Source: Enterococcus phage EFAP-1. From it: a stretch of 21,115 bases of DNA. The notes beneath the pieces were generated by a model that saw only the letters and a list, made by a program, of their open reading frames with translations, was not told the origin of the DNA and did no database searches. A program made the position numbers and the translations under genes. This document shows positions 1 through 20,386 of the stretch, in pieces (position 1 is the stretch's first letter; each line of letters begins with the position of its first letter). The DNA lies in sequence record FJ792813.1. One strand, given 5' to 3'.

Positions 1-213
1 ACTAAAAATAATTGCATGCCTTGCAAAATGACAAAACGTAAACTACAAGAGTTAGGTGTTAACTATCAAGAAATTAATGTGGATGAAGATTTGAGTGCAT
101 TAGGATATTTAATGGAATGCGGATTTCGTTCTTTACCAGTTGTGTTCAATGAAAATGGCGCACCTATGGTAACTGGTGGATTTGCACCAAATATCTTAGA
201 AAAGCTTGTGTGA
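1..213 (+). CDS. nrdH: NrdH-like glutaredoxin, 5' end truncated by the window edge
   Basis: Frame 1 is open from base 1 (TKNNCMPCKMTKRKLQELGVNYQEINVDED...SLPVVF...). The CxxC redox motif (CMPC) followed by KMTK and a C-terminal SLPV(V) motif is typical of NrdH redoxins. Stop TGA at 211-213. Opposite orientation to the phage late operon, so either a host flank or a moron. Confidence 0.6.
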   Translation, partial: TKNNCMPCKMTKRKLQELGVNYQEINVDEDLSALGYLMECGFRSLPVVFNENGAPMVTGGFAPNILEKLV

Positions 214-260
214 GAGGAGCATTCTAAGCACGTTTCAGATTCAAAGTAAGGTGATTATAC
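214..260 (+). repeat. copy A of a 46-bp direct repeat (AGGAG-ATTCTAAGC-N..-GTGATTAT)
   Basis: Aligns without gaps to 1865-1910 at 34 of 46 positions. Both copies carry the perfect 9-mers ATTCTAAGC and GTGATTAT at identical 30-nt spacing. Confidence 0.6.
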
Positions 261-263
261 ACG

Positions 264-299
264 AAAAGACCCCCTATAAAGGAGGTCTTTTTCTTTTTA
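264..299. terminator. bidirectional rho-independent terminator between nrdH and the endolysin gene
   Basis: GACCCCC tataaa GGAGGTC hairpin followed by TTTTTCTTTTT on the plus strand. Convergent genes stop on both sides. Confidence 0.6.
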
Positions 300-1283
300 T
301 TGATACATTAAGGCTTGTTTACTATCTGTGAACAACCAGATAAATTCATTTGGTAATTGTACATGAGATAATGTATAACCCATGTAAGGTGTTTGCTCTT
401 GTACTACACCTGTGCTGTTTTCTTGGAAGTTGAAATAGTCGCCAACTTTTAGTACTTGGTCCTTAGTAGGTTGTCCTGTTGCTGGATTAACCTTGTCAAC
501 AACTTCTACTGGAATACCGTTTTCAGTCCAATTAAAGTCAATTTTACCTAAATGTTCGTTGTAGATTTGCCACATTCCATTTACATACTCTAAGCCATCT
601 ACACGGTAATTGAAGCGTTTTTTATTACTAGGTTTACTAGGTTGTGTTGGCTTAGGTTTATCAGGTTTAGGAGTAGGTGTTGCTGTGTTACCACTAACCC
701 CATTAGCTAAGTCATGTGCCAATTGAGCTTTACTGATACCCATCTTAGCTAAGTAACCATAAGGGTCTGTGTGGTCACCCCATACAAAGTCTGTAACCCA
801 TTGGTGAGATACTACACCTTTTTCCCAAAGTGAACCACCTTGGTCAAGTGTCATTGGAATACCAAACTTTTTGCCCATGTCCCGTGTATAGTCAACATAT
901 GCTTTATAGTTGGCTTTAAATAGTTCAGGGTCGTTTGTATGTTGTAACTCAATTTGAACTGGTGCGTAAGGGTTAGCATTACCAGCACCCCATGATACGT
1001 TACCTTCTGGTGCTACTTTATAAACAATGCCACCATCACCAACAATGGCTGTAGTATGTGCATTAAACCAGTTGTTTTTCATATACGTAGCTTCATTACG
1101 ACCTGTTGCACGTGGATTAGCTGTTTCATGTAAGATGATTTTATTAGGATATGCCAGTTGTTGGCTACCTTCCCATGGTTGTAAATTAAATTCGTTGTTG
1201 ACTTCATATGCTTGTACATTTGTTGCACCAAAAAGCAATCCAAATGTTGTTACTACTGATAATAAAATTCCTTTTAATTTCAT
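297..1283 (-). CDS. endolysin: N-acetylmuramoyl-L-alanine amidase (Amidase_2/PGRP type) with N-terminal Sec signal peptide, PT-rich linker and C-terminal cell-wall-binding domain
   Basis: ATG at 1281-1283 with RBS AGGAGGA 6 nt upstream. N-terminus MKLKGILLSVVTTFGLLFGATNVQA has the n-h-c structure of a signal peptide with an AxA-like cleavage site. IILHETANP, SHQWV and GDHTDP are amidase_2 zinc-site motifs. TPTPKPDKPKPTQPSKPS is a linker. C-terminal 110 aa is W/Y/G-rich and SH3b-like. Confidence 0.85.
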   Translation of the reverse strand: MKLKGILLSVVTTFGLLFGATNVQAYEVNNEFNLQPWEGSQQLAYPNKIILHETANPRATGRNEATYMKNNWFNAHTTAIVGDGGIVYKVAPEGNVSWGAGNANPYAPVQIELQHTNDPELFKANYKAYVDYTRDMGKKFGIPMTLDQGGSLWEKGVVSHQWVTDFVWGDHTDPYGYLAKMGISKAQLAHDLANGVSGNTATPTPKPDKPKPTQPSKPSNKKRFNYRVDGLEYVNGMWQIYNEHLGKIDFNWTENGIPVEVVDKVNPATGQPTKDQVLKVGDYFNFQENSTGVVQEQTPYMGYTLSHVQLPNEFIWLFTDSKQALMYQ

Positions 1284-1516
1284 TGGTTTTCCTCCTTGTT
1301 GTCCTTAATTCCTTTTGTTGTTGGGTCTACTGCAATACCTAAGATACTTAGTACAACGAATAGCGCATTGATAACTGCAATGAGTTGTTCACTCAAACCA
1401 GTTAGTTTGCTCATGTCTAAGCCAAAGATATTACCAATCATTTGAATTAAAACAACTACTGCTGGTACTAATGTAATCCAAAACGCTTTACTTCTGATAC
1501 GTGTTTTCCAATCCAT
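1280..1516 (-). CDS. holin, phi LC3/TP901-1-like small class (2 predicted TM helices)
   Basis: MDWKTRIRSKAFWITLVPAVVVLIQ...LIAVINALFVVLSILGIAVDPTTKG closely resembles lactococcal P335-group holins (M.WK.R.KN..FW...IPA...DPTT.G). ATG at 1514-1516 with RBS AAGGAGAG. Its stop overlaps the lysin ATG (ATGA). Confidence 0.8.
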   Translation of the reverse strand: MDWKTRIRSKAFWITLVPAVVVLIQMIGNIFGLDMSKLTGLSEQLIAVINALFVVLSILGIAVDPTTKGIKDNKEENQ

Positions 1517-1530
1517 GTTATACACTCTCC

Positions 1531-1776
1531 TTATAATATTGTTATAATCGCACCAATGACAGCCACAATAATTGCACTACCTACAGTACGTGATAACCAT
1601 TTTAAGCGGTCATTTATACTAGCAATGTCCTTTTCATTTTGAATAGAACGGTGATGTGTTTCACTTAGTAATTGATTGTTTGCTTTTAGCTCATTTTTCA
1701 ATTCTGGAATACCTTCTAAGCTTGATTCAATCCTTGCTAGTTGTACTTTTATTTCCATAAAGTCCTTTTCTTCCAT
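1531..1776 (-). CDS. XhlA-like membrane-anchored lysis accessory protein
   Basis: 81 aa with an N-terminal coiled-coil (EIKVQLARIESSLEGIPELKNELKAN) and a C-terminal TM anchor (RLKWLSRTVGSAIIVAVIGAIITIL), as in Bacillus PBSX XhlA family proteins. RBS AAGGAGATG. Sits directly upstream of the holin. Confidence 0.65.
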   Translation of the reverse strand: MEEKDFMEIKVQLARIESSLEGIPELKNELKANNQLLSETHHRSIQNEKDIASINDRLKWLSRTVGSAIIVAVIGAIITIL

Positions 1777-1822
1777 GTCAGCATCTCCTTATTTTATAGT
1801 AAACCACCGCCTTTCAGCTACT

Positions 1823-1836
1823 ATTATAGTATATCA
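1823..1836 (-). promoter_or_regulatory. putative lysis-cassette promoter (TGATATACTATAAT on the minus strand)
   Basis: Extended -10-like sequence about 45 nt upstream of the xhlA-like ATG, just downstream of the strong terminator at 1922-1955. Confidence 0.3.
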
Positions 1837-1864
1837 CTTAAATAGGGGAAATAGTGTGCTTCAT

Positions 1865-1910
1865 AGGAGGATTCTAAGCGTTTTTCAGTCGCCAAGGTGG
1901 GTGATTATCC
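1865..1910 (+). repeat. copy B of the 46-bp direct repeat
   Basis: See copy A (214-260). Lies between the terminator at 1922-1955 and the putative lysis promoter. Confidence 0.6.
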
Positions 1911-1921
1911 ATTTAAAAGCA

Positions 1922-1955
1922 AATAAAAACACCTCTTTTTAGAGGTGTTTTTAAC
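1922..1955. terminator. strong bidirectional rho-independent terminator
   Basis: AAAAACACCTCT tttt AGAGGTGTTTTT: a perfect 12-bp stem with A-run and T-run flanks. Immediately 3' of the 95-aa ORF on the minus strand. Confidence 0.75.
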
Positions 1956-2242
1956 TATAGTAAATCAGAAAGTAATTCTTCTAATTTTGCTAGTCTTTCA
2001 GCCATTTCTTCTTTACTTGGTTCTGGTGGCTTACTAGCTTCTTCATCTAAAAACTTTTGGAAATCATTATCTGTATTTCTGGTCAATTCTTTACCATCAT
2101 AATAGTAATTATGAAAGTCAATCAATCCGCCTTCCATAGACTTTGCGCTTGTTATATCAATATCACATTTGATATAATCCTCATAAGCTTCTGTAGTATA
2201 TCCTGTTAAGAAACCTACTCTATCTGGTATCCAAATTTCCAT
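1955..2242 (-). CDS. hypothetical 95-aa protein downstream of the tail fibre (acidic, C-terminal coiled-coil)
   Basis: ATG at 2240-2242 with RBS AAAGGATG, tightly coupled to the upstream gene. Position is analogous to the small XkdW/XkdX-like proteins that sit between fibre and lysis genes in PBSX-like elements. No recognisable motif. Confidence 0.5.
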   Translation of the reverse strand: MEIWIPDRVGFLTGYTTEAYEDYIKCDIDITSAKSMEGGLIDFHNYYYDGKELTRNTDNDFQKFLDEEASKPPEPSKEEMAERLAKLEELLSDLL

Positions 2243-2257
2243 TGTTTTACATCCTTT

Positions 2258-4327
2258 CTATACTGAAAATACACCTGTCAATACCCATTTAGCACCATTA
2301 CCTTGTGCATTTTCTGCCCGTCCTTTTATCTGTGTTTTACTAACATATACATATTTGAATATAGTATCATTTGCGCCATCACCAGTTGAAGCACCTTGTA
2401 GTCGCATTACAATACCTTTACCATTATTGTAAGCACCATGTGCTTTTGGAACTAGGTAGTACGTATAGTCCCAAGTACCTGGTGTTGATGTTGATGTGTT
2501 ATAGGGTTGCCACATAAACAACCAACCTATTGCAACTTCATCCATGGTAAGTGTTGGTGTAATTATATCATTTGCACCAACCCAAGATGCTCCACTGTAT
2601 AATCTGCGAGCTGTATTTGCGAATTGCATTACTAATTCAGCAGTTAAGAAACCACTGTTACCTTGTGCATCTAGTAATGACAACCCTGCTGGTGTAAGGC
2701 TTGCATATTGGTTTACTGAACTGTCAGTATTTAGTACACGTGCGTCAAACCCTTGTGAAAACAACCTTGTTGAACCTGTTCTGTTTGTTGTTAAGTTCTG
2801 GTATTCAATTTCCATTTCACCACTAGCTACGGTTGATATACCTTCAAGTTGTTGACCAGCTACTGTTGTTTTGAACGTATTCAAAAATTCAGAACCATTG
2901 ATTGTAGAACCGTTCATTGTTACAGCGTTTAATGTTTCAATGTTTAGCACAGATTGGTCAATTGTCTGTTCAACCCATTCTGTTTTTAAATCATCCCATA
3001 CCTTATAAGATGCTATCTTAGGATTTTCTTTTACTGCTCTTGTTTCAAGGTCACCTAATCTATTAACTGCATTAACTGGTACAGTACCATCAACAACCCA
3101 CCACATATCACCTTGTTTTGGATTAACTGGCGGTTCTTGTTGAACATATACTTTAGGAATAGATGCAACCTTATTATTAATCTGAGTGTTCAATTGGTCT
3201 GATAACTTTCTAAGCTCATCATTTATACCAGATTCAATTACTACAAAGTCTGATAACGTAGCTTCAACACTATCTGTGGTATAGTCATATTTTAGTTCTT
3301 GAACACGTGATTCAAGATATAACTCTTCCTTCTCGTCAACTAGTTTAATTTTATCACCAACAAGTAGATTGTATGGGATATTAGCAATATCAACTTCATA
3401 TGAAACCAGTGGTTTTCCATAATCTTTCAAGTGTTTTAGTGCGTAATCAACTAGTTTGTTTTTTGTAGTTGTTTCAAAGTCTAACTGCTGTAAGAAATAG
3501 TTATCCTCTGTATGAGTTCGTGACCATTGTTTGATGTTCTCTCTATCATATATAATACCAGTTGTTTTATCTAATCTAAAACGATTATTTGGGTCTACCC
3601 AGTTATAACCTTTCAGGTCAACAGGTTTATCTGCCCCATCAGGAGTACCACCAATAGGTTTTATAGCATTTACTAATTGGTAAATATCTTCTTTAGTCTT
3701 GATTGAATTAATATCCCTATTAACATATAGAGTGTGTACTTTATCTGTACCACGTCTCTTTTTAATGTCAATATATCTATTAACTAACTGGTTACCATTG
3801 AATTCAAATCTGAACTCTAATTCTGCATTATCAAATTGCGTTGCTACTGATTGAATACGTTCCAATGCGGTTGCTCCTGAATCCCACTCTAATTTTCTAG
3901 ATAACTTACTGATTTCATTAACACCAATTTTGAAACCACTGCTTCCAGCGAATTCTTCGATATAATACTTAATTGGAAACGCTTGTGTTGCCTTATACGA
4001 TTCAACATGTTGGTTCAGCAAGTCTAGTGATGCATCTTCCAATTCCATTGTTCTAACTTGGGTTAATGGGTCATGTTCAACACTTAAAATTGTCATCCAC
4101 TCATACTTACCATTCTTGTCAACGTAAAGTACGTAGTTACCTACTTTGAACGTTTCTTTAGCTAGTGCGCTAGTTTGTTGCGTAAATGTAACATCCAATA
4201 CCATACGTCTGCTTGCTGTTGATAACTGAACAGTATCCTCAGCAGTTACCACACTAAATAGTGTACCACCATTTGTTGATACAATATCTAATAATTTAAA
4301 TGTTCTATCTGTAATATAAAAATCCAT
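2258..4327 (-). CDS. tail-associated protein Tal / tail fibre (Prophage_tail-type N-terminal domain; C-terminal putative receptor-binding region)
   Basis: 689 aa. N-terminus MDFYITDRTFKLLDIV... is typical of the siphovirus Tal N-terminal (gp27-like) domain. Position immediately after Dit. C-terminal 200 aa are G/S/T/W/Y-rich, like receptor-binding heads. RBS GGAGG. Confidence 0.7.
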   Translation of the reverse strand: MDFYITDRTFKLLDIVSTNGGTLFSVVTAEDTVQLSTASRRMVLDVTFTQQTSALAKETFKVGNYVLYVDKNGKYEWMTILSVEHDPLTQVRTMELEDASLDLLNQHVESYKATQAFPIKYYIEEFAGSSGFKIGVNEISKLSRKLEWDSGATALERIQSVATQFDNAELEFRFEFNGNQLVNRYIDIKKRRGTDKVHTLYVNRDINSIKTKEDIYQLVNAIKPIGGTPDGADKPVDLKGYNWVDPNNRFRLDKTTGIIYDRENIKQWSRTHTEDNYFLQQLDFETTTKNKLVDYALKHLKDYGKPLVSYEVDIANIPYNLLVGDKIKLVDEKEELYLESRVQELKYDYTTDSVEATLSDFVVIESGINDELRKLSDQLNTQINNKVASIPKVYVQQEPPVNPKQGDMWWVVDGTVPVNAVNRLGDLETRAVKENPKIASYKVWDDLKTEWVEQTIDQSVLNIETLNAVTMNGSTINGSEFLNTFKTTVAGQQLEGISTVASGEMEIEYQNLTTNRTGSTRLFSQGFDARVLNTDSSVNQYASLTPAGLSLLDAQGNSGFLTAELVMQFANTARRLYSGASWVGANDIITPTLTMDEVAIGWLFMWQPYNTSTSTPGTWDYTYYLVPKAHGAYNNGKGIVMRLQGASTGDGANDTIFKYVYVSKTQIKGRAENAQGNGAKWVLTGVFSV

Positions 4328-4355
4328 GATTATACCTCCTATATATTATATTAAT

Positions 4356-4391
4356 AGTATACCACAAACGATAGGGGCTTGTAAAGCCCCA
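4356..4391 (-). promoter_or_regulatory. hairpin GGGGCT-TTACA-AGCCCC followed by a TG-extended -10-like TGTGGTATACT, upstream of Tal
   Basis: Perfect 6-bp stem at 4374-4390 directly after the Dit stop, then TTTGTGGTATACT and RBS GGAGG before the Tal ATG. Confidence 0.35.
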
Positions 4392-4396
4392 TATTG

Positions 4397-6478
4397 TTAT
4401 AGGTATGTTTGTTCTAAGATGCAATTAACCTCAGGTTGTAAAGCCCAAGATGATTTTAATGGTAGTATATCATGCTCACCTAAACCGAGTTGGAACTGTT
4501 CCCACTGGTTACCAACAACATTCAATTCATTGTTTATAGCACCATTGATATACACATTACGTGAGTACGTATCTAACTCAACTATATCACCATCTTTAAA
4601 ATAATTTCTAACATTATTAATGTACTTCACATTTAACCAACGTAATTTAGCATCAGTTATCATTACTGTGTTGGCTTTATTGTTTGAGAATTGTTGCACC
4701 CAGAATCCAAAATGTGATAGGTCTGAACTATCTTCAACATTATATACAAATGAATAGTTATCTCCAACCACTACATTATCAAGTTTGTTTATACTCTTGA
4801 TTGAAGCTAAGCGCCATTTGACATATGTTTCAGCACGTTCAATGTTTATTTCAAGTTTAAGACTACCAAACTTCTTTTTATCTAAGATGTATTGGTGTAC
4901 CAACTCACCTTTATACCAACATTCCATGATTGTGGTATTAGCTGATGTTAATGAATCTCTAAAGACTGTACTTATAACAGCTTCACCTCCAGTAGCACGT
5001 ATCATATACTCTAACCTTGCCATAGGTGATGTTTCACGATAATTATTGAATACAAAGCGAATATTTGCTATAAAGTGAGATGTCCTATCGTTTGTGGATG
5101 GTGCTGTAATTGGTATAACACCAGAAGGACCATGCCACACACCTTCTTTTTCGTTTGTGAAGTTTGGTAATACTGAATCAATATCTTTTACCATATTTAA
5201 AGAACCATCAAATAGATTGGGAGTTCCTACATTACCTAGATAGTTAGGATACGTACTTACGAAACCAGTGTTTTCTACCATTCCAGTAGGTAGTTCAGTA
5301 CCCCAAAAATCTAATACCTGTACTGTTTCAGTACGTGATTGTTCTGTATAATCAACTTCTTCTGGGTTACCTATTTGGATTATCTGACCACTCTTATTGA
5401 CCACTCCAACCAATCCATTTTCACCATTCATTTTAAATGAAAAGCGTGGATAGGCTTTGTATGTTCCGTTATTTACAACTTTTAATTCTTCTTTCAGTTC
5501 AATCAACGATTCTTGGTAAGTCATTGGTGTTGTCTGGTCAATTGCAAACATAGGTTCGCATATATCACCACTAACATGGTCACCATATAAACCAAAGTTC
5601 ATTGATAATCCAGTTGTTTCTGGACTTTTGATAGTTATTGTTTTTGCGTACATGGTCCAGTCTTTTACCTCATTAGGCATCTCAATCACATGTGTGTATG
5701 TTTTCCTAACTGGATTGTCTGCCCATTCTATCAATATTAGTTCTGCTGTCTTATCTGGTCGTACCTCGTTGTCTACTACGTTAATACGCACCTTAGCTTG
5801 AAAGCCAACTGTTTGACCTACATTTAAATCTAAATTCATACGTCTGTTGTATGCATCATAGAAGAACCATGCTTGGTGAGGTGTGCTGTTGTCAACATAA
5901 TAGGCTGGTATACCAGCAGTGAAGTCACAACTCAATACATTACTTTCACCTTGTTTTTCAATGGCTAACTGCGCCCAAGGTTTATAGTACTGGTCTTTAC
6001 GCTCAAAATTTGAATCTAATACCATGTTACTATTTTTAGTTATTACATTATTAAAGTTTGAAGCTTCAATCTGATGAGCTAAGGCATCAGGTACATCAAA
6101 TGTTAATGTAAATGGTGTGTACTTTGTGTCTGTTGCGTCATACTCTTCTGTGCCTGTGAATATTGCGTTAAAATATCTATCTGGCATCTGGTCTAGTATA
6201 AGTCTTTTAGGTTCATCACTATTGATAATCTTTACAAGCGCATCCTTGGTTTGTGATACAGTCATACCACTATTGTCTGAAATAATGAAACCATCAATAC
6301 TGATTGCGAAGTCACCTAATCTTGTATTTCTAAAGTGTTTACCATCTGTGTTACCAATCTGAAAAAAATCATTATCTTTTGATAAAAATGGTACGTTAAC
6401 TTTAGCTATTTGAAATAGATGGCTTGTTTCTTTTCCGTCAAAAGTAAATGAGCGTAGAAAATTATAGTTTTCTTTCAT
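4397..6478 (-). CDS. distal tail protein Dit, long 'evolved' form (693 aa)
   Basis: N-terminus MKENYNFLRSFTFDGKETSHLFQIAKVNVPFLS matches the siphovirus Dit (Sipho_tail) N-terminal signature. Position immediately after TMP. Length is more than twice a classical Dit, implying inserted (carbohydrate-binding-like) domains. RBS AAAAGGAG. Confidence 0.7.
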   Translation of the reverse strand: MKENYNFLRSFTFDGKETSHLFQIAKVNVPFLSKDNDFFQIGNTDGKHFRNTRLGDFAISIDGFIISDNSGMTVSQTKDALVKIINSDEPKRLILDQMPDRYFNAIFTGTEEYDATDTKYTPFTLTFDVPDALAHQIEASNFNNVITKNSNMVLDSNFERKDQYYKPWAQLAIEKQGESNVLSCDFTAGIPAYYVDNSTPHQAWFFYDAYNRRMNLDLNVGQTVGFQAKVRINVVDNEVRPDKTAELILIEWADNPVRKTYTHVIEMPNEVKDWTMYAKTITIKSPETTGLSMNFGLYGDHVSGDICEPMFAIDQTTPMTYQESLIELKEELKVVNNGTYKAYPRFSFKMNGENGLVGVVNKSGQIIQIGNPEEVDYTEQSRTETVQVLDFWGTELPTGMVENTGFVSTYPNYLGNVGTPNLFDGSLNMVKDIDSVLPNFTNEKEGVWHGPSGVIPITAPSTNDRTSHFIANIRFVFNNYRETSPMARLEYMIRATGGEAVISTVFRDSLTSANTTIMECWYKGELVHQYILDKKKFGSLKLEINIERAETYVKWRLASIKSINKLDNVVVGDNYSFVYNVEDSSDLSHFGFWVQQFSNNKANTVMITDAKLRWLNVKYINNVRNYFKDGDIVELDTYSRNVYINGAINNELNVVGNQWEQFQLGLGEHDILPLKSSWALQPEVNCILEQTYL

Positions 6479-6513
6479 GTGTATTATCTCCTTTTCTTAG
6501 TCACTATACTAGT

Positions 6514-6549
6514 ATTATAACACAAAAGACAACCCTTGTAAAGGGGTTG
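6514..6549 (-). promoter_or_regulatory. hairpin (CAACCC-TTTACAAG-GGGTTG) plus TGTTATAAT between TMP and Dit
   Basis: Hairpin at 6530-6549 directly after the TMP stop, then T-rich tract and TGTTATAAT (plus 6514-6522) 25 nt before the Dit RBS. Confidence 0.35.
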
Positions 6550-6560
6550 CCTTGATGTTT

Positions 6561-9500
6561 TTAAATATAACCTAGATTACGTCTAGTGTTTCGTTCTTGT
6601 GTTCTGTTGAGGTTATTAAGCTCTTTGTTCATCTTCTTACCATCTAATATAACATCTGTGTTTTTAGCTAAGATAGCTTGTAACAATTCGTTCTGTTGTT
6701 GCATTAAGCTAACCAATAATGCCATGTCTTGTGATTCGCCACTGCCACCTACATGGTTGCGTTCGTCTTTGACACCTAACATCTGTTTAGCTTGGTTAAG
6801 TAACGCTAGTGCTCTACCTCGTTTAGATGGTTCAGTTGGTATGATAACCTCAGGGTGACCGTTTTCAGCCAGTGTTGCAATCTGTGGTGTTCTTGCAATA
6901 CCACCATTGAAGTAACCTCTAATACGGTGACCACGTGGACCCCAACCTGATTTACCGTACTGCAAGTCATTTTCCCAATTACTATTGTTGAAGAAAGCTA
7001 ATAATTGGTGATAGCCATTGTTAATGTTACCATAACCTGGAACTTTGTACGCATCAAACGTCTGTGGAATATATTGTAATAATCCTCGTGCTGGGTTACC
7101 ACTCAATGTGTTAATGTCAACCACATCTGGACTTTGAACAATCTTTTCATTACCACCTGATTCACGCATGATTTGAGCAACTAAACCAGCTACCTGTGAA
7201 CTACTGATTGATTGACCCATGTATTTCGCCGCCTTGCGGATAACAGGTGCCCAGTCACCACCAGCACCAGCTGATTCTTCTTCCTCTTTTTTCTTGAATA
7301 ATGCTTTAACCTTTTCAGCAAATGCAGATGTGGCTTTACTACCTAATCCTTTTGCCATGTCAAGTGGGATGTGTGATAGTCCACCTAAGTCCATTGCACC
7401 CATAATTGCATTGCGTGCTAGGTCTAATGGTTTACCTACCCAGTCCATTACATCACTGATTGTTTCTTTTACCTTGTTGATTCCGTTACCTACAAATGAT
7501 TTTGTATTAGACCACATGTCTTTTACACCATCCATGAAACCAGTTCCTTTTTTGTAGAATGGCACACGCCCGCGTTTACCTAAGAAAGCTGATGTTTCAT
7601 GTTCGTTCAATACATGTGTACCTTTAGGTGCGTTCATCATTACGTTACGCCCTTTAGGTATCATTGCGTTACCATCAGGTGTGATTACCATTTCAGCTCC
7701 GCCACCATCATTTACTACCATAGGTCCGCCAACGTGTCCGCCTGAACCTGTTCCTTGTTCATACTGTGGTACATTCCATTTGGCAACTTGTGGTGCGCCA
7801 AATTTTTCTAGTACCCAGTTAGCACCGCCAATGATTCCATTTACTGGTCCACCAATGGCTCTTAATACTCCGTTGAAAATACCTTTAAACGCATTAGTTA
7901 TTGCACCAGCTCCGTTCTTAACTGCTCTCACCATTTGGTTTGGTAAATCAGCAAACCAGCCTGAAACTGTTTTAATTCCTGTACTAAATGTGTTCTTGAT
8001 ACCGTTCCAAAGATTACGAATAGTATTGCTTACTAGGTTTTTCATAGTGTTCGCAATACCACTTATACCATTCTTAAATCCGTCAAAGATATTTTTAGCA
8101 CCATTTGCCCCACTACTAAAGAAGTTCTTGATACCATTCCACATGTTACTTACTGTGTTCTTGATTGCATTCTTGAAATTATTAGCTATACCTTTGATAC
8201 TTCCGCCAAACTTATCAAACAACGCACCCGCACTACTTCCGCCACTTGTAAAGAAGTTCTTGACTCCGTCCCACATGGCTTTCACTGTGCCTTTTACTGA
8301 TGTACCTAGTCCTTTTACACCTTTGAAAATCTTACCAATGAACATTAGGTTGAACCATTCCCAAACGGCTTGGATTCCACCAAAGAAGATACGTTTAATC
8401 GCATCCCACAAACCAGTGAAGTCACCTGTTAATACCATTGAAAAAACATCAATAATACCTGTGATTACATCAACCATTCCATCAATGAACCCCACAACTG
8501 ATTTAACAAATGATTTTACAATTTCAATTGCAATAGCAAAGATTGGTTTCAATAGTGTAAGTAGGTTCATAATTGCCTTACCAATACGGTCACCATTTTG
8601 GTCCCACCAATTGCTTATTTTGTCAAATATCTTACCTAAGGCTTCTGCTAACTCTTTAATAATTGGCATAATCATTGGTAGTAGTTCTTTTACAAAGAAG
8701 TCTAATACTATTTTGAAAATCTTTTGAGCGCCACCAAGTAACTTAGTGATTGCTTTTAAGGCTTTGTCAATTAATGGTATAACTGTTGGAATAATCTCAA
8801 CTGTGATAAAATCAACTACTTTTGTTAATGTTTCAAAGAATCCCGCTGGTGTACCGTCACCAGTACCAAAAGTGAACGCATTTTTGATATAATCTTTAAA
8901 TCTTCCTAATGATTCTTTAATACCTACAATAGCATTAGATACAGTTTTCATTTTTTCGTCTGATAAACCAAGCATGTCTAAGTCAACTAAGCCATTACCT
9001 TCCCATGCTGATTTAAAGTTATAACCCCATGATTTTAACCCACTTAATGATGATTTGAACTTGTTTACTGCACTGTCAATTCTATTTATTCCCTTTATAT
9101 CTAATCCAAGCGCGCCAACATTTATGAGACCCTCACCTTTCCAAATACGTTTAATGTTTTCTGCCCACATACCAACTTTTTTACCAAAGCCTGATAAGTA
9201 ACCCCACGCTTCACCTGTGACTTTTCCAAATACATCAAATGTACCCTTGAATACCTTACCAACCCATGAAAGGTTTTTGGCTAATTCAGGTAGGCTGTTA
9301 CCTAATCCACCCAAGAAAGCTTCAAACCTATTACCTGTGTTTGTTATCTGCTCTTGGAAAGATGGTAGACCCATTTTTTCTAGTGATTTGTTTAGTCCTT
9401 CAATCATCTTGGCTGTACCACGCGTAACAGCTGATTTCATGTTGGCTATTGCAGTACCAAAACCTTGTGTACTATCTTTAGCTATCTTTTCTAATGACTT

Positions 9501-11499: not shown

Positions 11500-11518
11500 A
11501 ATTGATTCCTCCAATAAA

Positions 11519-11571
11519 TTTATTTTTCTTACTAAAGATATTATAGCATAAACACTGGTGGTTGTGGGTGT
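11519..11571 (-). promoter_or_regulatory. conserved late promoter-like element, copy E1 (upstream of chaperone/TMP block)
   Basis: Minus strand ACACCCACAA-ccaccagtgttta-TGCTATAAT-ATCTTTAGTAAGAAAAATAAA, then RBS GGAGGA. Confidence 0.55.
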
Positions 11572-11589
11572 TGGTGAAACTAGTTCAAA

Positions 11590-11625
11590 TAAAAAGAGTA
11601 CCTACACTTAAGTAAGTACCCCTTC
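11590..11625 (-). terminator. hairpin plus T-run after the major tail protein gene
   Basis: Minus strand GGGGTACTTAC ttaagt GTAGGTACTC followed by TTTTTATTT. Confidence 0.45.
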
Positions 11626-11629
11626 TATA

Positions 11630-11702
11630 TTATGATAATTCAATTGTCACAGATGTTTCATCTGTTGTTATTTCACCCACTAGCGGTGCTTTACTCACTG
11701 GG
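11630..11702 (-). CDS. +1-frame C-terminal extension of the major tail protein (PVSKAPLVGEITTDETSVTIELS)
   Basis: The +1 frame is open from CCA at 11699-11701 to TAA at 11630-11632. The peptide is almost identical to the +1-frame peptide after the MCP gene, and the nucleotide differences are mostly synonymous in this frame. Confidence 0.5.
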
Positions 11703-12260
11703 AGAAACGTTGTTTAACTTGTCAACAAATTTATCTAATGTTAATTTCTCACCAGATACGCCTGACATGTAAGCAATACCACGGTCATCTGTTACAAATG
11801 AACCTTCAATTGTTTCTGTGTTTGGTTCTGTTCCGCCAGATTCGGTTGTGTTTAATGCAATTTCTGGGTGGCTGAAACGACCTTTAGTTAAACCAAAGTA
11901 CATTTCTTTACCGTCTGCGCCGTCTGCTACGAATGTAACTGATACGTATGGTGCTTCTGTATCTTCGCCAACTGATGCAATGCCTTCTTCATCACGTGTA
12001 ATACCCAAGATTTTTTCATATACTCCACCTTTGTATAAGTCAAAGACGTTTAATGTAGCTGATAACTCACCAACACCTTTAGCAGATACCCAAATTGGAA
12101 CGTTTGAAGCATAAACAGTTGTTTGTTCTGCTGAAATTCCTGAAATAGAAGCTTCAATAGTACCGCCACCTGTTTTATCAATTACATGTTTTTCAATTGT
12201 TTTTCCATCTTCGCCACCACGTACTGAAATGATAGCCTTTTTAAACCCTACTACTGCCAT
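11691..12260 (-). CDS. major tail protein
   Basis: 189 aa, MAVVGFKKAIISVRGGEDG... Start ATG 12258-12260 with RBS AAAGGAG. Position between tail completion genes and the chaperone. Composition typical of siphovirus MTPs. Confidence 0.8.
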   Translation of the reverse strand: MAVVGFKKAIISVRGGEDGKTIEKHVIDKTGGGTIEASISGISAEQTTVYASNVPIWVSAKGVGELSATLNVFDLYKGGVYEKILGITRDEEGIASVGEDTEAPYVSVTFVADGADGKEMYFGLTKGRFSHPEIALNTTESGGTEPNTETIEGSFVTDDRGIAYMSGVSGEKLTLDKFVDKLNNVSPSE

Positions 12261-12276
12261 ATTAAAATCTCCTTTG

Positions 12277-12332
12277 TTTTTATATTTTCTTACTAGAATA
12301 ATTATATCATTAATCAACCTGTTTTAGGGTGT
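12277..12332 (-). promoter_or_regulatory. conserved late promoter-like element, copy E3 (upstream of MTP)
   Basis: Minus strand ACACCCTAAA-acaggttgattaa-TGATATAAT-TATTCTAGTAAGAAAATATAAA, then RBS AAAGGAG. Confidence 0.55.
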
Positions 12333-14000: not shown

Positions 14001-14082
14001 TTAACTCAATTCAATTGTTGCTGATGTTTCAGTAGTTGTTATCTCACCAACTAGCGGTGCTTTACTCACCGCCGACACTGGG
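14001..14082 (-). CDS. +1-frame C-terminal extension of the major capsid protein (PVSAVSKAPLVGEITTTETSATIELS)
   Basis: The +1 frame is open from CCA at 14079-14081 to TAA at 14001-14003. See MTP extension. Both genes share the CCC_AGT_G context upstream. Confidence 0.5.
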
Positions 14083-15318
14083 TGTCAAAGTGATGAACTT
14101 ACCAGCGTTTTTATCAACGATTTCACAGTCAAAGCGCATTGCTACTGCTAATACTTGACCGTAGTATTGGTGTTCTACCCAACGGACAGTAGTGTCTACA
14201 CGGTCAAAGAATACCGCGAACGCGTCAGGTTGTCCTAAGAATGCTACCATGTCACCATCTTTAGCTCCAATTAATTTGTCAGCTAAAACAGTTACTTTGC
14301 GACCTAGTAAAGCTTTACCAGATTGTGCTTTGATGTCATCTTCTAATAAGTAACGTCCGTTAGCGTCTTTCATTTGGTCTAAAGCGTTGAAGAATGATTG
14401 TGAAACGATAAATTCTAAGTTGTAAGCTGGGTCAAAACCAGTGTTAACTTGCGTTTTCAAGTCATCAATAGATTTCGCAGCTACTGCTGTAGCTTCTTTT
14501 AATTTAGCAACAATAGCTTTGTTAGCTGTGTTCAAACCTTGACGTTGAATGTGACGTGCAATGATTCCAGATAAGTCATCATCAGAATCTTGTAAAGCTT
14601 CTTCTGCTACTGCAATTTGACCACGGTAAGTTTCAACTTCATATTTGACTTCTTCGAAAGCTGGTCCTTCTAAATCAGGGTTCTTTTTAAGTTCTTCAAC
14701 TGTTGCCAATACTGCTTCATTAGCTTTCAAGATTGGATATTTACCCATTGCATGTGTTACTTTTTGACGTGTAATCATGTTACGTAAATCAACAACTGTT
14801 TCAGGTAACATTTTAGCTTTTGTGATAATTTCTTCTGGGATAATTGCAGAAGCATCCGCAGACTTAACACCTTCAAATGATTCAGGCAATGCACGTGTTT
14901 CTTTTGAGCGTAAGTATTCTAAGAATCCACGCACTTCTTTATTTTCTACTTCTTTTCCATCTAAAATAACTTTCTCCATGTTTTCTTCTCCTTTTTGCTC
15001 TAGTGAGCGTTTTTCTGTTTTAGGTTCTTCCTTTGGTTCCTCTTTAGGTTCTTCAACATCTTGTTCAGTTTTTGCTGAACGTTCTTCTTTTGTTTCTTCC
15101 TTATCTTCTTTAGGTTCTTCCTTTGGTTCGTCCTTAGCATCTTCTGCTTTAGGTTCTTCCTCTGGTTTCTCCTCTTCTTTATTATCAACTGCACGTTCTT
15201 CTTCTTTAGGTTTTTCCTCATCTAAAGCTTTAATTTGTTGCATTACTTTTTCAGCTTCATCAAGTTTACCTTCTGATAATAAAGTTTGTGCTTGTTCCAT
15301 AAGTTCTTGCCGTGACAT
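14062..15318 (-). CDS. major capsid protein (HK97 type) with N-terminal delta/scaffolding-like domain
   Basis: The C-terminal 280 aa have HK97-fold-like composition. The N-terminal 130 aa are a coiled-coil plus an E/K/P-rich low-complexity region (EEKPKEEE..PKEEPKEEPK). There is no separate scaffold gene between protease and MCP. ATG 15316-15318 with RBS AGGGG (the track start is GTG at 15324). Confidence 0.85.
   Translation of the reverse strand: MSRQELMEQAQTLLSEGKLDEAEKVMQQIKALDEEKPKEEERAVDNKEEEKPEEEPKAEDAKDEPKEEPKEDKEETKEERSAKTEQDVEEPKEEPKEEPKTEKRSLEQKGEENMEKVILDGKEVENKEVRGFLEYLRSKETRALPESFEGVKSADASAIIPEEIITKAKMLPETVVDLRNMITRQKVTHAMGKYPILKANEAVLATVEELKKNPDLEGPAFEEVKYEVETYRGQIAVAEEALQDSDDDLSGIIARHIQRQGLNTANKAIVAKLKEATAVAAKSIDDLKTQVNTGFDPAYNLEFIVSQSFFNALDQMKDANGRYLLEDDIKAQSGKALLGRKVTVLADKLIGAKDGDMVAFLGQPDAFAVFFDRVDTTVRWVEHQYYGQVLAVAMRFDCEIVDKNAGKFITLTPSVGGE
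15010..15200 (-). repeat. tandem coding repeats (TTTAGGTTCTTCCTTTGGTTC-type) inside the MCP delta domain
   Basis: Repeated units at about 15019-15040, 15108-15130 and 15150-15175 encode PKEEPKEE repeats. Alternative frames give K-rich and S-rich phantom ORFs. Confidence 0.5.
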
Positions 15319-15336
15319 ACGCACACCCCTTAGTTT

Positions 15337-15952: not shown

Positions 15953-17090
15953 TTGCTGACACTCCTTCTTGTCCTTTTACTTGGATGTGCGTATCGCCAT
16001 CTGGTAAATTCTCATAACCTAAATAGTCACGGATTTCATTCACTTGGATAGCACCCAATAGTTCTTTACCTGACTTACCTTCAAATACTCGTTTCCGTCT
16101 ATCTTCATAAGTATCATTCAATAATGTTGTCAAGTCTAACTCTAATGTGTTACCTGTTTTAATTTCAATTTCATCACAGATGGCTCTTTCATACTGGCTA
16201 ATAGTTGATGCAATGTAGATGTCGTTCGCTCCACTATCTGTAGAGTTTACTAACTCCATACCAAAGCGGTTCAATGGAATACCTAATACTTTTGCAATCT
16301 GTTGTGTACTGAACTTGTTACCTTGGATAAGTTTAAGAATATCAGTATTCATTTTGTACTCTTGGAACTCTGTTGATTCATCTAAGACAATAACTCCATT
16401 ACTGTTTGTGCTTCCGCCGTTTGCCTTTTCAAAGTCTTTTCTGATTTTAGCTTTAGTATCGTTATCAACGTAAGCGCCTTTTAGTTTTAAGATACCTCCG
16501 CCGAATACTCCGTTGGCAAAGAACTTACTTAAAATCTTACTACCGTTTGACTGCATAGCTACTTCATCTTTTAATGATAATAAAGGACTTCTTCCAAGGA
16601 AACCATCTACGGTTGTAATTCTAAAGTGTAAAATATCTTCTGGTTTACACTTGTACATGATACTACCATAATCCATTGTTACATCATATGACCACTCACC
16701 AGTCGTTACATTTTGGATTACATTAACTTGTTCAGGTCTTACAAATTCTAAACTCTCAATACCACCCATTCTATCTCTATGAATCAATGCGTATGAGTTA
16801 CCGCTTAGAATCAAGTTTGCTACTGTTGCATACATGAACATGTAATGACTTTGTTTGTCGTTTGGTCGTTTGTTAATCATCTTCAAGAACTCTTCATCAA
16901 CTGGAATATCTTTGACTGGTCTAAAGCTTGACTGTCCTAAGTCACCACTAATAATGTTGATACCTGTGAAAATGTCTGAATTGCGTAATGCTTTTTCACC
17001 TGTGATTTCTGTTGAATAAATGTCACTGCTTTCGATAAAGTCAATGAAGTTCTGCTTTGTTGTACTTCTAGGTGCTACAAAAACTCCCAT
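15939..17090 (-). CDS. portal protein (HK97 family)
   Basis: 383 aa. Size, position after TerL and composition are consistent with Phage_portal family proteins. Confidence 0.85.
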   Translation of the reverse strand: MGVFVAPRSTTKQNFIDFIESSDIYSTEITGEKALRNSDIFTGINIISGDLGQSSFRPVKDIPVDEEFLKMINKRPNDKQSHYMFMYATVANLILSGNSYALIHRDRMGGIESLEFVRPEQVNVIQNVTTGEWSYDVTMDYGSIMYKCKPEDILHFRITTVDGFLGRSPLLSLKDEVAMQSNGSKILSKFFANGVFGGGILKLKGAYVDNDTKAKIRKDFEKANGGSTNSNGVIVLDESTEFQEYKMNTDILKLIQGNKFSTQQIAKVLGIPLNRFGMELVNSTDSGANDIYIASTISQYERAICDEIEIKTGNTLELDLTTLLNDTYEDRRKRVFEGKSGKELLGAIQVNEIRDYLGYENLPDGDTHIQVKGQEGVSASEES

Positions 17091-17094
17091 TTAA

Positions 17095-17259
17095 TTACTC
17101 ACCTTCTCCCAATTCTTTGTATAAGATTACTGATGGAATTAATAATGCTACTGCTAAGGCTACTAAACCAGCTACTAAACCAGTGAAAAACATTGATGTG
17201 ACTAGTGATAGCATACCTAAAACGTAGAAAATTACTACTAACCATACCGCATTTTGCAT
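17095..17259 (-). CDS. small hydrophobic membrane protein (2 TM) between terL and portal
   Basis: ATG 17257-17259 with RBS AGGAGGGG. MQNAVWLVVIFYVLGMLSLVTSMFFTGLVAGLVALAVALLIPSVIL... Preceded by TGTGGTAAAAT. Confidence 0.4.
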   Translation of the reverse strand: MQNAVWLVVIFYVLGMLSLVTSMFFTGLVAGLVALAVALLIPSVILYKELGEGE

Positions 17260-17304
17260 ATTTACCCCTCCTATATACCTCATTTTACCACAAAACAATA
17301 GAAA

Positions 17305-17328
17305 AAAGAGTGCTAGTTAAAGCACTCT
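17305..17328 (-). terminator. hairpin plus T-run immediately after the terL stop
   Basis: Minus strand TAA AGAGTGCT ttaact AGCACTCT TTTTTCTATTGTTTTG. Confidence 0.5.
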
Positions 17329-19053: not shown

Positions 19054-19424
19054 ATGTATACCTCCTTGTTTCTATTATAGCACAAATAAAAAGACTTAGG
19101 TCATGAGTTTATCCAAAGGGGATAACAAACTTACCTAAGTCAATTGGTCGCACAGCAACCGTTATTAAATGATTAAGTGTTGTTATGTGGTTGGCGGACC
19201 GTCCACATACGGACTGCCTCACAACACTTAATAGAGTTTTGCTCACTTGGTTAAGGAGGTAAGAGCGTTTCCTTGTAAATAGACCCTCACATCTATTTAC
19301 TAACATGTTACTAACATGTCCGCAACTATTGCCGTAGTTGCTCCTGAATAATACTACCCAATATTATTCTAATCTACAAATCATCTGGAAGGCGTTTTCC
19401 GTAAATACATTATACCACAACTTA
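19054..19424 (-). other. 370-bp structured noncoding spacer between terS and terL
   Basis: No credible ORF. The only ORF (65 aa, 19109-19306) has no RBS and starts inside a repeat. GC-rich relative to the flanks. Tandem TTACTAACATG x2 (19298-19319), palindrome TAACATGTTA, stem-loop GCAACTA-ttgcc-TAGTTGC (19322-19341), inverted repeat AAGTGTTGT/ACAACACTT (19167-19215). Promoter-like TCAACA-N17-TGTGGTATAAT on the minus strand at about 19396-19430. Confidence 0.4.
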
Positions 19425-19898
19425 CTAACTTTGTTGACGTAACTTAATCAACTGTCCTAGTGGGTCATTGCTTTCTTTTGTTTTTTCAGCTGGTGCCACT
19501 ATTTTCAGTCTTGCGTTAATTGTCAAACCAAGGTCAGCAGTTGCGGACTTCAACTCTTTACTATATGAGTTCATGATGTCAACACGTGGATTCTTCTTAC
19601 CATCTGGTGTGATTTCTCCTTCTTCCATCAATCGCTCTGTTGCTTCACTATATAGGTAAGTGTAATTACAGTAACGAACCATTGTTTGTTGGTCCAATTC
19701 TGAAATAGGTAGGTCACCTATAAAGTGTGAGATACGTTCCCATTCAGGAAAAGCACCTTGCAATAATCCTTGTGGATAATAACTAAAGTCTAACTTCTCA
19801 TAGTTGTAAAGTGCTTCTTCCTCTTTCTTACGTTCCTCTTGTTGCTCTGTTGTGAGGTTGCCAACTTGGGCATTAATTAATTTTCTTGGTCTACCCAT
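19425..19898 (-). CDS. terS: terminase small subunit (P27 family)
   Basis: 157 aa. MGRPRKLI... plus the overall P27-family pattern. RBS AAGGAGGTG. Immediately upstream of terL, in a region that also carries an HNH gene. Confidence 0.8.
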   Translation of the reverse strand: MGRPRKLINAQVGNLTTEQQEERKKEEEALYNYEKLDFSYYPQGLLQGAFPEWERISHFIGDLPISELDQQTMVRYCNYTYLYSEATERLMEEGEITPDGKKNPRVDIMNSYSKELKSATADLGLTINARLKIVAPAEKTKESNDPLGQLIKLRQQS

Positions 19899-20291: not shown

Positions 20292-20386
20292 CATGTTTTC
20301 AACTTTCGTTTTTAGAAATTCGTGTGAAAAGAAGTCATCACCGATTAGCTTGACCAAAAAATCGAGGGGGGGTCTAAAAAATTTAG

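What the first reader, a model, noticed from the sequence alone, without database searches (positions are those of the whole stretch)
214..1910. Lysis cassette bracketed by a 46-bp direct repeat, with nrdH immediately outside
Positions 214-260 and 1865-1910 share AGGAG-ATTCTAAGC-N21-GTGATTAT, with two exact 9-mers at identical spacing and 34 of 46 matches overall. One copy lies just past the lysin terminator, between it and nrdH. The other lies just upstream of the xhlA/holin/lysin promoter. The repeat therefore flanks the entire lysis module (297-1776) in direct orientation. This is the arrangement expected for a module swapped in by recombination at short conserved linker sequences, or one that could loop out. 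A small structured RNA is an alternative, since both copies are followed by terminator hairpins on the plus strand. nrdH sitting directly beyond it may be a host flank, placing attR just outside the window, or a phage moron.
Basis: seen in the sequence. Interest (0 to 1): 0.55.

Follow-up and report, generated by a model that had tools for sequence, protein, structure and literature searches.

The report
Conserved non-coding element bracketing phage lysis genes
Two copies of a strongly conserved non-coding sequence of about 70 bases, each beside a transcription terminator, flank the lysis genes of this virulent Enterococcus phage; one copy sits at a fixed distance upstream of the lysis promoter, so it is most likely a DNA control site, but its function is unproven.

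Summary
The repeat is real. Positions 215-261 and 1865-1911 match at 35 of 47 bases (best shuffle 28), with both exact 9-mers at the same spacing. The prophage reading is wrong. The window is a virulent Efquatrovirus phage (94% identical to EfaCPT1), and the nrdH-like gene is the last gene of its early arm, not a host flank.

The repeat is a conserved island. About 65-80 nt align without any indel, with two boxes, GAGCATTCTRAGC and GGTGATTAT. Two copies bracket the lysis cassette in nearly all Efquatrovirus phages and in a diverged E. faecium phage group. Single copies occur in S. mutans M102-like phages, 59-kb E. gallinarum phages and a conjugative element.

It is not coding, matches no Rfam family and shows no conserved RNA structure on either strand.

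On the late strand, copy B lies between the tail-operon terminator and an extended -10 lysis promoter. The box-to-promoter spacing is exactly 37 nt in all 26 distinct copy-B sequences and also in the S. mutans phages.

My best reading (confidence about 0.35) is a DNA-level control site at a terminator-promoter junction. Copy A would be a promoter-less partner, and both copies also serve as homology patches for cassette exchange. A plus-strand small RNA is the main rival.

The parts
1..213 (+). 3' part of the NrdH-like glutaredoxin gene, the last gene of the phage early/replication arm. Its stop codon abuts copy A.
   Evidence: Pfam Glutaredoxin, E = 3e-12. It is syntenic with EfaCPT1 gp21, downstream of the DNA polymerase gene.
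198..261 (+). Copy A of the conserved element: GAAA..TGTG, box 1 GAGCATTCTAAGC (218-230), TTTCAG (233-238) and box 2 GGTGATTAT (250-258). No promoter follows it on the late strand.
264..291 (.). Bidirectional intrinsic terminator between the converging early arm (nrdH) and late arm (lysin). In this clade it differs from the hairpin found in most relatives.
   Evidence: Inverted repeat I12, terminator scan and comparison of relatives.
297..1283 (-). Endolysin (Amidase_2 + ZoocinA_TRD).
1280..1516 (-). Holin (Phage_holin_1).
1531..1776 (-). XhlA-family protein, the first gene of the lysis cassette.
1828..1838 (-). Extended -10 lysis promoter AGTGATATACT. The TG is at 1836-1835 and the hexamer TATACT at 1833-1828. 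It starts exactly 37 nt after the CTTAGAAT box of copy B on the late strand.
   Evidence: Sequence. An extended -10 lies at offset 37 in 26 distinct copy-B sequences.
1848..1926 (+). Copy B of the conserved element: GAAATAGTGTG (1848-1858), box 1 GAGGATTCTAAGC (1868-1880), TTTCAG (1883-1888), box 2 GGTGATTAT (1900-1908) and CATTTAAAAGCAAATAAA. On the late strand it spans roughly -27 to -105 relative to the lysis promoter.
1924..1953 (.). Bidirectional intrinsic terminator (13-bp stem) that ends the tail operon.
   Evidence: Inverted repeat I7, terminator scan and the EfaCPT1 annotation.
1955..2242 (-). Last gene of the tail arm (hypothetical, EfaCPT1 gp17 homologue). It lies next to a hypervariable tail-side region.

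Best explanation
The repeat is a conserved non-coding DNA element, not a coding relic, not an att site and not a structured RNA. Read on the late (minus) strand, each copy lies just downstream of an intrinsic terminator. Its order there is T-rich tract, (G/T)ATAATCACC, 11 nt, CTGAAA, 3 nt, GCTTAGAAT.

Copy B fills the gap between the tail-operon terminator and the extended -10 promoter of the XhlA-holin-lysin cassette. I infer that it is the upstream control region of that promoter: a docking site, with two boxes about three helical turns apart, for an unidentified factor. That factor could be host-encoded, or it could be a phage protein that co-evolves with the element. It would set when or how strongly transcription restarts into the lysis genes after termination of the tail operon.

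Copy A is an old paralogue without a promoter, at the junction where early and late transcription converge. It would bind the same factor, as a partner site for looping, insulation or titration. As a by-product, the two conserved patches give homologous recombination a foothold, so the cassette can be exchanged as a module.

Shown: the anatomy, the conservation, the fixed spacing, the absence of RNA structure and coding, and the cassette exchange. Inferred: protein binding, regulation of the lysis promoter, and any role for copy A.
For: 1. The element is an island of conservation. In E. faecium phages, blastn finds only the element and not its flanks (hits H74-H79). Sixty-four distinct copies from four phage groups align over 92 columns with no indel.
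2. Both copies are present in 26 of 28 Efquatrovirus loci and 12 of 18 E. faecium-phage loci, and there are never more than two per genome.
3. It is not coding. The upstream ORF stops before, inside or after the element, in different frames. Examples are nrdH TGA or TAG, read-through in LY0322, and the tmk TAA inside ATTCTAAGC in BUCT630.
4. RNAalifold gives no consensus structure on either strand, there are no stacked covarying pairs, and there is no Rfam hit.
5. Every other late intergenic region of this phage is a terminator directly followed by TGTGnTATAAT. Only the lysis junction carries the extra element.
6. The distance from the CTYAGAAT box to the extended -10 is exactly 37 nt in 26 distinct copy-B sequences of two phage groups. 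By my own count on the sequences it is also 37 nt in the unrelated S. mutans phages (TGaTAATAT). A conjugative-element version has TATGATATACT 23 nt away.
7. Lineage-specific changes appear in both copies together: CATAGGAG/TTTCAG in E. faecalis phages against CTCACGAG/TTTAAA in E. faecium phages. This is what recognition by one shared factor would produce.
Against: No binding protein is identified. Apart from structural proteins, terminase subunits and one uncharacterised protein, the only proteins shared between the phage groups at blastp level are HNH endonucleases. Copy A, the E. faecium copy A' and the E. gallinarum-phage copy have no -10 at that spacing, so the promoter link covers only some contexts. 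In the S. mutans phages the putative -10 overlaps the annotated start codon of the downstream gene, which makes that promoter doubtful. The conjugative-element spacing differs by 14 nt, which is not a whole number of helical turns. Conservation shows no 10-11 bp periodicity. Some phages lack copy A (L171, L175) or carry an HNH insertion that alters box 2, so neither copy is strictly essential. There are no transcription data.
Confidence: 0.35

Rival explanations
1. The element works as plus-strand (AGGAG-sense) RNA. Copy A would be the 3' UTR of the early operon, ending at its terminator. Copy B would be a sibling small RNA made from a promoter divergent from the lysis promoter. The unstructured conserved boxes would pair with targets. 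One such target is late read-through transcripts, which carry the complement of the other copy. Pairing could tune lysis timing.
For: On the plus strand both window copies are followed by hairpins with T runs. The S. mutans phage versions have TTGCCA-18-TATAAT just upstream on this strand. Their substitutions within a local 7-bp helix keep pairing on this strand through G-U pairs and would not on the other strand. The conjugative-element version has TGcTAGTAT upstream and a hairpin with a T run downstream. The convergent layout makes the copy A RNA complementary to late-strand RNA that spans copy B.
Against: There is no consensus structure and no Rfam family. In about half of the E. faecium-phage copy-B sequences the hairpin has no T run on this strand, while the late-strand T tract is always kept. 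The S. mutans -10 is not conserved (TATAAT, TGTAAT, TATTTT). The two copies are no more similar within a genome than between genomes (0.727 against 0.727, permutation p = 0.48). Duplex predictions against the ribosome-binding regions of all the phage's own genes are no better than for shuffled queries. The complete absence of indels in poorly conserved spacers is unexpected for an unstructured seed RNA.
Confidence: 0.2
2. The copies have no regulatory role. They are remnants of an old duplication, or linker sequences kept because recombination at them moves the lysis cassette between phages.
For: A cassette swap with near-identical flanks is seen in L137 against L145 (96% / 82% / 98%). Several pairs break exactly at copy B. 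Breakpoint density is 2-3 times the average at the copies. Some copy B sequences carry a copy-A-type right half, which indicates ectopic gene conversion.
Against: Single copies occur where nothing is bracketed: in S. mutans phages, 59-kb E. gallinarum phages and a conjugative element. The same roughly 35 positions are kept in both paralogues across two diverged phage groups, while the flanks have diverged beyond blastn detection. Most breakpoints lie elsewhere. Direct repeats around essential lysis genes carry a deletion cost.
Confidence: 0.15
3. The element is a target site, or a leftover leader, of a free-standing HNH homing endonuclease cassette.
For: In LY0322-type phages (about 10 records) an I-HmuI-like HNH gene sits exactly between the motif and its terminator and uses AAGGTGGGT as its ribosome-binding site. 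HNH endonucleases are almost the only non-structural proteins shared between the phage groups that carry the element.
Against: The other HNH genes in the same genomes have no such sequence nearby, and each genome has only its one or two element copies. The element is conserved in hundreds of phages that lack the insertion, and at copy B no insertion was seen.
Confidence: 0.07
4. The element is a strand-specific replication or priming signal, similar to a single-strand origin (sso).
For: Family members lie next to ssb in a conjugative element, in an iteron-rich 880-nt non-coding region of phage EG103P3, and possibly between rep and mob on a S. mitis plasmid-like contig. The two phage copies lie on the same strand.
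Against: There is no conserved hairpin. The ssoA signatures RSB (TTATGCCGAGAAAATTT) and CS-6 (TAGCGT), as given in PMC4598088, are not matched in sequence or order. These phages encode their own primases. The S. mitis hit is at the chance level for that scan.
Confidence: 0.07
5. The repeat is a prophage attachment-site repeat, with nrdH as the host flank.
For: Only the position of copy A just downstream of the lysin gene, which is where attP or attR lies in many temperate phages.
Against: The window is collinear with complete genomes of virulent Efquatrovirus phages, in which nrdH follows the phage DNA polymerase gene. The 22-nt core pattern was found in no Enterococcus chromosome among 185,579 species-representative genomes.
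Confidence: 0.01

Closest known systems
Activator-dependent late promoters of Gram-positive phages, such as the TP901-1 late promoter with its Alt-binding repeats and phi29 p4 sites upstream of promoter A3 (from my own knowledge of the literature, not tested here)
   Same: A promoter with a good extended -10 and no usable -35, preceded by a conserved upstream region reaching about -100 at fixed spacing. It controls late functions.
   Different: No activator gene is identified. The sequence is unrelated to those sites. A second, promoter-less copy lies downstream of the regulated cassette. The same element occurs in unrelated phages and in a conjugative element.
Promoter-coupled terminators (bioRxiv 10.64898/2026.08.19.745784)
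   Same: Terminators and the next promoter are packed together between tandem transcription units. All other late junctions of this phage follow this pattern.
   Different: At the lysis junction the terminator and promoter are separated by about 100 nt, and that gap is filled by the conserved element.
Linker or boundary sequences of the modular theory of phage evolution, as described in lambdoid phages (own knowledge)
   Same: Short conserved sequences at module junctions, with mosaic breakpoints enriched there.
   Different: The element is duplicated within one genome, is conserved far beyond its flanks, and occurs as single copies in other contexts.
Lambda nutL/nutR and HK022 putL/putR (own knowledge)
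   Same: Two copies per genome of a short conserved non-coding element tied to the control of transcription through terminators.
   Different: Those act as structured RNA downstream of promoters. Here no structure is conserved, and on the late strand the copies lie after terminators rather than before them.
ssoA-type single-strand origins (PMC4598088, PMC8860593)
   Same: A non-coding, strand-specific element of mobile DNA in Firmicutes, with superficial TAAGCGT and TTATGC similarity.
   Different: The RSB and CS-6 signatures are not matched and there is no conserved long hairpin.

Membership tests
Prophage att sites (attL/attR) | Direct repeats flank an integrated prophage, with host DNA outside them. 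| tested here: not met
   The window is collinear with complete virulent Efquatrovirus genomes and nrdH is a phage gene. The core pattern is absent from Enterococcus chromosomes.
Any Rfam RNA family | A match to a covariance model at or near its gathering score. | tested here: not met
   The best hits are 20-27 bits against thresholds of 47-90, and all are driven by the terminator hairpins.
Structured cis-regulatory RNA or riboswitch | A conserved secondary structure supported by compensatory changes. | tested here: not met
   RNAalifold predicts no pairs on either strand for 64 sequences, and there are no adjacent covarying column pairs. Local helices in the S. mutans and EG103 versions are not conserved elsewhere.
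Protein-coding sequence or small ORF | An open frame kept across homologues, with variation at third codon positions. | tested here: not met
   Stop codons of the upstream genes fall at different places and in different frames within the element. Copy B has no consistent ORF.
Intrinsic (rho-independent) terminator | A GC-rich hairpin followed by a T run. | tested here: met
   This is met by the hairpins at 264-291 and 1924-1953 next to each copy, not by the motif itself.
Extended -10 sigma-A promoter with an upstream control region | TGnTATAAT-like -10, no need for a -35, and an upstream element at fixed spacing. | tested here: met
   Copy B: TGaTATACT at 1836-1828, 37 nt from the CTTAGAAT box, in 26 distinct sequences. 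This is not met for copy A.
Extended -10 sigma-A promoter with an upstream control region | A cognate DNA-binding factor. | not testable with these tools
   No regulator shared between the phage groups was found by blastp. This needs a gel-shift or pull-down experiment.
Module boundary (linker) sequences | Mosaic breakpoints between related phages coincide with the conserved sequence. | tested here: inconclusive
   There are clear examples, but the enrichment is only 2-3 fold, the pairs compared are not independent, and many breakpoints lie elsewhere.
ssoA single-strand origin | The RSB and CS-6 sequences within a long imperfect hairpin. | tested here: not met
   The published RSB and CS-6 sequences do not match in sequence or order, and there is no conserved hairpin.
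Homing-endonuclease target site | Cleavage of the allele that lacks the insertion, by the endonuclease encoded at the insertion. | not testable with these tools
   Only the position of the insertion is known.

The most novel reading that the evidence does not exclude
The element defines an undescribed family of terminator-to-promoter junction control sites shared by unrelated mobile elements of Lactobacillales: Enterococcus and S. mutans phages and a conjugative element. In Efquatrovirus-like phages the two copies would be bound by one factor that bridges them. This would loop out or insulate the 1.65-kb lysis cassette and so act as a transcriptional lysis timer that operates before the holin does.
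Probability: 0.15. Interest if true: 0.7.

Novelty: new variant of a known kind. Interest (0 to 1): 0.45.

Why it matters
Efquatrovirus phages are among the Enterococcus phages most often isolated for therapy, and nothing is known about how they control transcription of their lysis genes. A conserved, experimentally tractable element at a fixed distance from the lysis promoter gives a direct handle on lysis timing, through reporter fusions and point mutants. If a host factor binds it, that would also explain why unrelated phages and a conjugative element of enterococci and streptococci carry the same sequence. The two copies also mark where lysis cassettes can be exchanged, which is useful for engineering phages and for interpreting their mosaic genomes.

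Tried and rejected
- **Rfam, permissive search**: only terminator-driven noise.
- **Single-sequence folds**: no structure shared between copies beyond the terminators.
- **RNAalifold on both strands and an all-pairs covariation screen**: nothing.
- **Closing helices** seen in the window copy A, the APCM01 copy and the EG103P3 copy: they use different registers and are not conserved within their own groups.
- **Reading the motif as a peptide** (R-S-I-L-S-x-F-Q..V-I-I-H): rejected because the stop codons of the upstream genes vary in position and frame.
- **The motif itself as a sigma-A promoter on either strand:** no -35/-10 pair at a workable spacing (and inspection by eye).
- **Helical (10-11 bp) periodicity of conservation:** not significant, p = 0.42.
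- **Co-variation of the two copies within a genome:** none.
- **Predicted pairing of the element RNA, either sense, with all EfaCPT1 ribosome-binding regions:** no better than shuffled queries.
- **Search for a regulator shared by the four phage groups:** mainly structural and terminase proteins and HNH endonucleases.
- **ssoA signatures**: no match.
- **Known regulator boxes recalled from memory** (cre, CodY, DnaA box, WalR, LytTR repeats, PerR): only partial, non-conserved resemblances.
- **Resemblance of GCTTAGAATGCTC to part of the E. faecalis type II-A CRISPR repeat** (recalled from memory): an 8-11 nt match that does not co-vary with the S. mutans repeat, so I dropped it without a proper test.
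- **Literature searches** on Efquatrovirus and M102AD intergenic elements: no description of this element.
- **Scan of representative bacterial genomes**: hits at chance level only.
Full report
**Observation**

At an offset of 1650 nt, 215-261 and 1865-1911 align without gaps at 35 of 47 positions: AGGAGnATTCTAAGCnnnTTTCAGnnnCnAAGnnnGGTGATTATnCA. The two exact 9-mers occur only at these two places on the plus strand. Shuffles of the two non-coding stretches never exceed 28 of 47, and the next best match of copy A in the window is 27 of 47. On the plus strand each copy is followed by a hairpin with flanking A and T runs, at 264-291 and 1924-1953. The genes in between are XhlA, a Phage_holin_1 holin and an Amidase_2/ZoocinA_TRD lysin, and a glutaredoxin/NrdH-like gene ends at 213.

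**Context**

The first 2.3 kb are 94% identical and collinear with Enterococcus phage EfaCPT1 and about 50 other complete genomes of the virulent genus Efquatrovirus. In EfaCPT1 the glutaredoxin gene follows the DNA polymerase gene and is the last gene of the early/replication arm, which converges on the lysin at a shared terminator. The window's minus strand is the late strand. So there is no prophage, no host flank and no attR. A scan of one genome per bacterial species for the 22-nt core pattern gave only six hits, about the number expected by chance, and none was in Enterococcus.

**Extent and distribution**

In most relatives the repeat is longer than in the window. It runs from about 20 nt upstream of AGGAG through CCATTAAAACGCAAATAAAG and the terminator hairpin, about 105-115 nt in total. 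The window and EfaCPT1 carry a replaced terminator at copy A.

A profile search finds these numbers of copies:

| Group | Copies found |
|---|---|
| Efquatrovirus loci | Two copies in 26 of 28 loci; never more than two in a whole genome |
| Diverged E. faecium phages (BUCT630, IME-EFm1/5) | Same two-copy bracket of the lysis cassette in 12 of 18 loci |
| S. mutans M102-like phages | Single copy, between the major tail gene and the tape-measure gene, antisense to all genes |
| 59-kb E. gallinarum/casseliflavus phages | Single copy in an 880-nt iteron-rich non-coding region |
| Conjugative element | One divergent copy between ssb and the coupling-protein gene |

In the E. faecium phages blastn detects only the element and not the surrounding DNA. 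Sixty-four distinct copies align over 92 columns without a single gap. The conserved cores are box 1 GAGCATTCTRAG(C), a TTT.A patch and box 2 GGTGATTAT.C.

**What it is not**

- It is not coding. The upstream ORF ends before the element (TGA in the window), inside CATAGG (TAG in many relatives), after reading through it in another frame (LY0322), or at the TAA inside ATTCTAAGC (tmk of BUCT630).
- It matches no Rfam family.
- It is not a conserved RNA structure. RNAalifold predicts no pair on either strand, and an all-pairs screen finds only isolated column pairs that reflect clade differences.
- Local helices that close the motif in the S. mutans and EG103P3 versions are not conserved in the other groups.
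- No 10-11 bp periodicity of conservation was detectable.

**Promoter anatomy**

All other late-strand intergenic regions of the window are a terminator immediately followed by an extended -10 promoter (TGTGnTATAAT). This holds after terS, terL, the major tail gene, the tape-measure gene and Dit. It resembles the promoter-coupled terminators described in bioRxiv 10.64898/2026.08.19.745784.

The tail-to-lysis junction is the exception. The order there is terminator (1953-1924), the reverse-complemented element (1926-1848), and then AGTGATATACT (1838-1828), an extended -10 of the same type. The generic consensus scan missed it because it has no -35.

The distance from the CTTAGAAT box to the -10 hexamer is exactly 37 nt in all 26 distinct copy-B sequences that carry the box, across both Enterococcus phage groups. 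This holds although the spacer sequence itself differs. By my count on the sequences, the S. mutans phages also have TGaTAATAT exactly 37 nt after CTCAGAAT. That hexamer overlaps the annotated start codon of the next gene, so this case is weaker. The conjugative-element version has TATGATATACT 23 nt away, followed by a hairpin and a T run. Copy A, the E. faecium copy A' and the EG103 copies have no -10 at these offsets.

**Evolution**

Copy B of the two Enterococcus phage groups shares features absent from copy A (GAAATAGTGTG and GGTGGGTGATTAT), so the duplication predates their split. Even so, lineage-specific changes are shared by both copies of a group: CATAGGAG/TTTCAG against CTCACGAG/TTTAAA. 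Within a group the two copies are no more alike in the same genome than between genomes (0.727 against 0.727, p = 0.48). Some copy B sequences carry a copy-A-type right half, which indicates occasional ectopic conversion.

The lysis cassette does move as a unit. L137 and L145 are 96% and 98% identical in the flanks but 82% in the cassette. Several pairs switch from more than 97% identity to unalignable sequence exactly at copy B. A crude breakpoint count gives 0.31 and 0.19 breakpoints per nt at copies A and B, against an average of 0.10. There are also many breakpoints inside the cassette and in the early arm, and the pairs are not independent.

**HNH insertion**

In about ten phages (LY0322, KEN02, 785CS, ZXL) an I-HmuI-like HNH gene lies exactly between box 2 and the terminator of copy A. 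It uses AAGGTGGGT as its ribosome-binding site and alters box 2. Other HNH genes in these genomes are not associated with the element. I read this as a secondary insertion at a conserved spot.

**Interpretation**

Four features argue for recognition of the sequence by a macromolecule with fixed geometry:
- strict primary-sequence conservation with no structure;
- rigid internal spacing;
- a constant position after a terminator;
- a constant 37-nt distance to an extended -10 promoter that lacks a -35.

The simplest reading is a DNA-binding factor acting at a terminator-promoter junction, with copy B as the upstream control region of the lysis promoter. Copy A would be a promoter-less partner. 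Its conservation is real but its role is unexplained; looping, insulation of the convergent junction and titration are all guesses. No factor is identified: beyond structural proteins, terminase subunits and one uncharacterised protein, blastp finds only HNH endonucleases shared between the phage groups.

The main rival is a plus-strand RNA, that is, an early-operon 3' UTR plus a sibling small RNA. Promoter-like sequences upstream of the S. mutans and conjugative-element versions support it, as do wobble-compatible substitutions in the S. mutans versions. Several findings weaken it: the missing plus-strand T runs at many E. faecium copy B terminators, the lack of any structure or within-genome co-variation, and the lack of predicted targets.

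A pure recombination-linker role, a homing-endonuclease site and an sso-like priming site are less likely. The prophage reading is refuted.

**Verdict**

The finding is a genuine, previously undescribed conserved non-coding element. Its function remains inferred.

Noticed in passing
window minus strand, about 14066-13995 and 11695-11625: The roughly 70 nt just after the stop codons of the major capsid gene (14062-15324) and the major tail gene (11691-12317) form a direct repeat. In another frame both copies read ...VSKAPLVGEITT(T/D)ETS(A/V)TIELS*. This suggests a shared frameshift or recoding extension of both proteins.
   Followed up: partly
window late-strand junctions at 4320-4400, 6470-6565, 11510-11695, 17085-17335 and 19050-19430: Every other late intergenic region is an intrinsic terminator followed within a few bases by an extended -10 promoter (TGTGnTATAAT). 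The late operon is therefore a chain of terminator-promoter modules.
   Followed up: partly
L121 (phage LY0322) 19725-20301: An I-HmuI-like HNH endonuclease gene is inserted exactly between the motif and its terminator at copy A. It uses the motif's AAGGTGGGT as its ribosome-binding site, and here the glutaredoxin ORF reads through the motif.
   Followed up: yes
L241 5560-5800 and L226 4091-4148: A divergent member of the motif family lies in a Gram-positive conjugative element, between ssb and the type IV coupling-protein gene. On the opposite strand, an extended -10 (TATGATATACT) is followed about 30 nt later by a hairpin and a T run. This could be a tiny antisense transcription unit.
   Followed up: partly
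window 20335-20343 (+): TCATCACCG lies upstream of the small terminase gene. It matches what I recall, from memory only, as the cohesive-end sequence reported for IME-EF4-like phages.
   Followed up: no
L122 (phage EG103P3) 2700-3570: An 880-nt non-coding region holds the single motif copy. It also holds three GG(G/T)(T/C)AGCTAT(A/G)(C/T)T repeats and two 40-nt repeats of the form ...CCCGGGATTTTTAA..CACTTAAAAC.TCAT.A. It could be an origin or a regulatory hub.
   Followed up: no
L171 and L175 (E. faecium phages), about 4526-4560: These phages lack copy A altogether, and the nrdH-like gene ends about 30 nt from the lysin gene. Their copy B has a replaced middle segment, but L174 carries the same variant and still has copy A.
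   Followed up: partly
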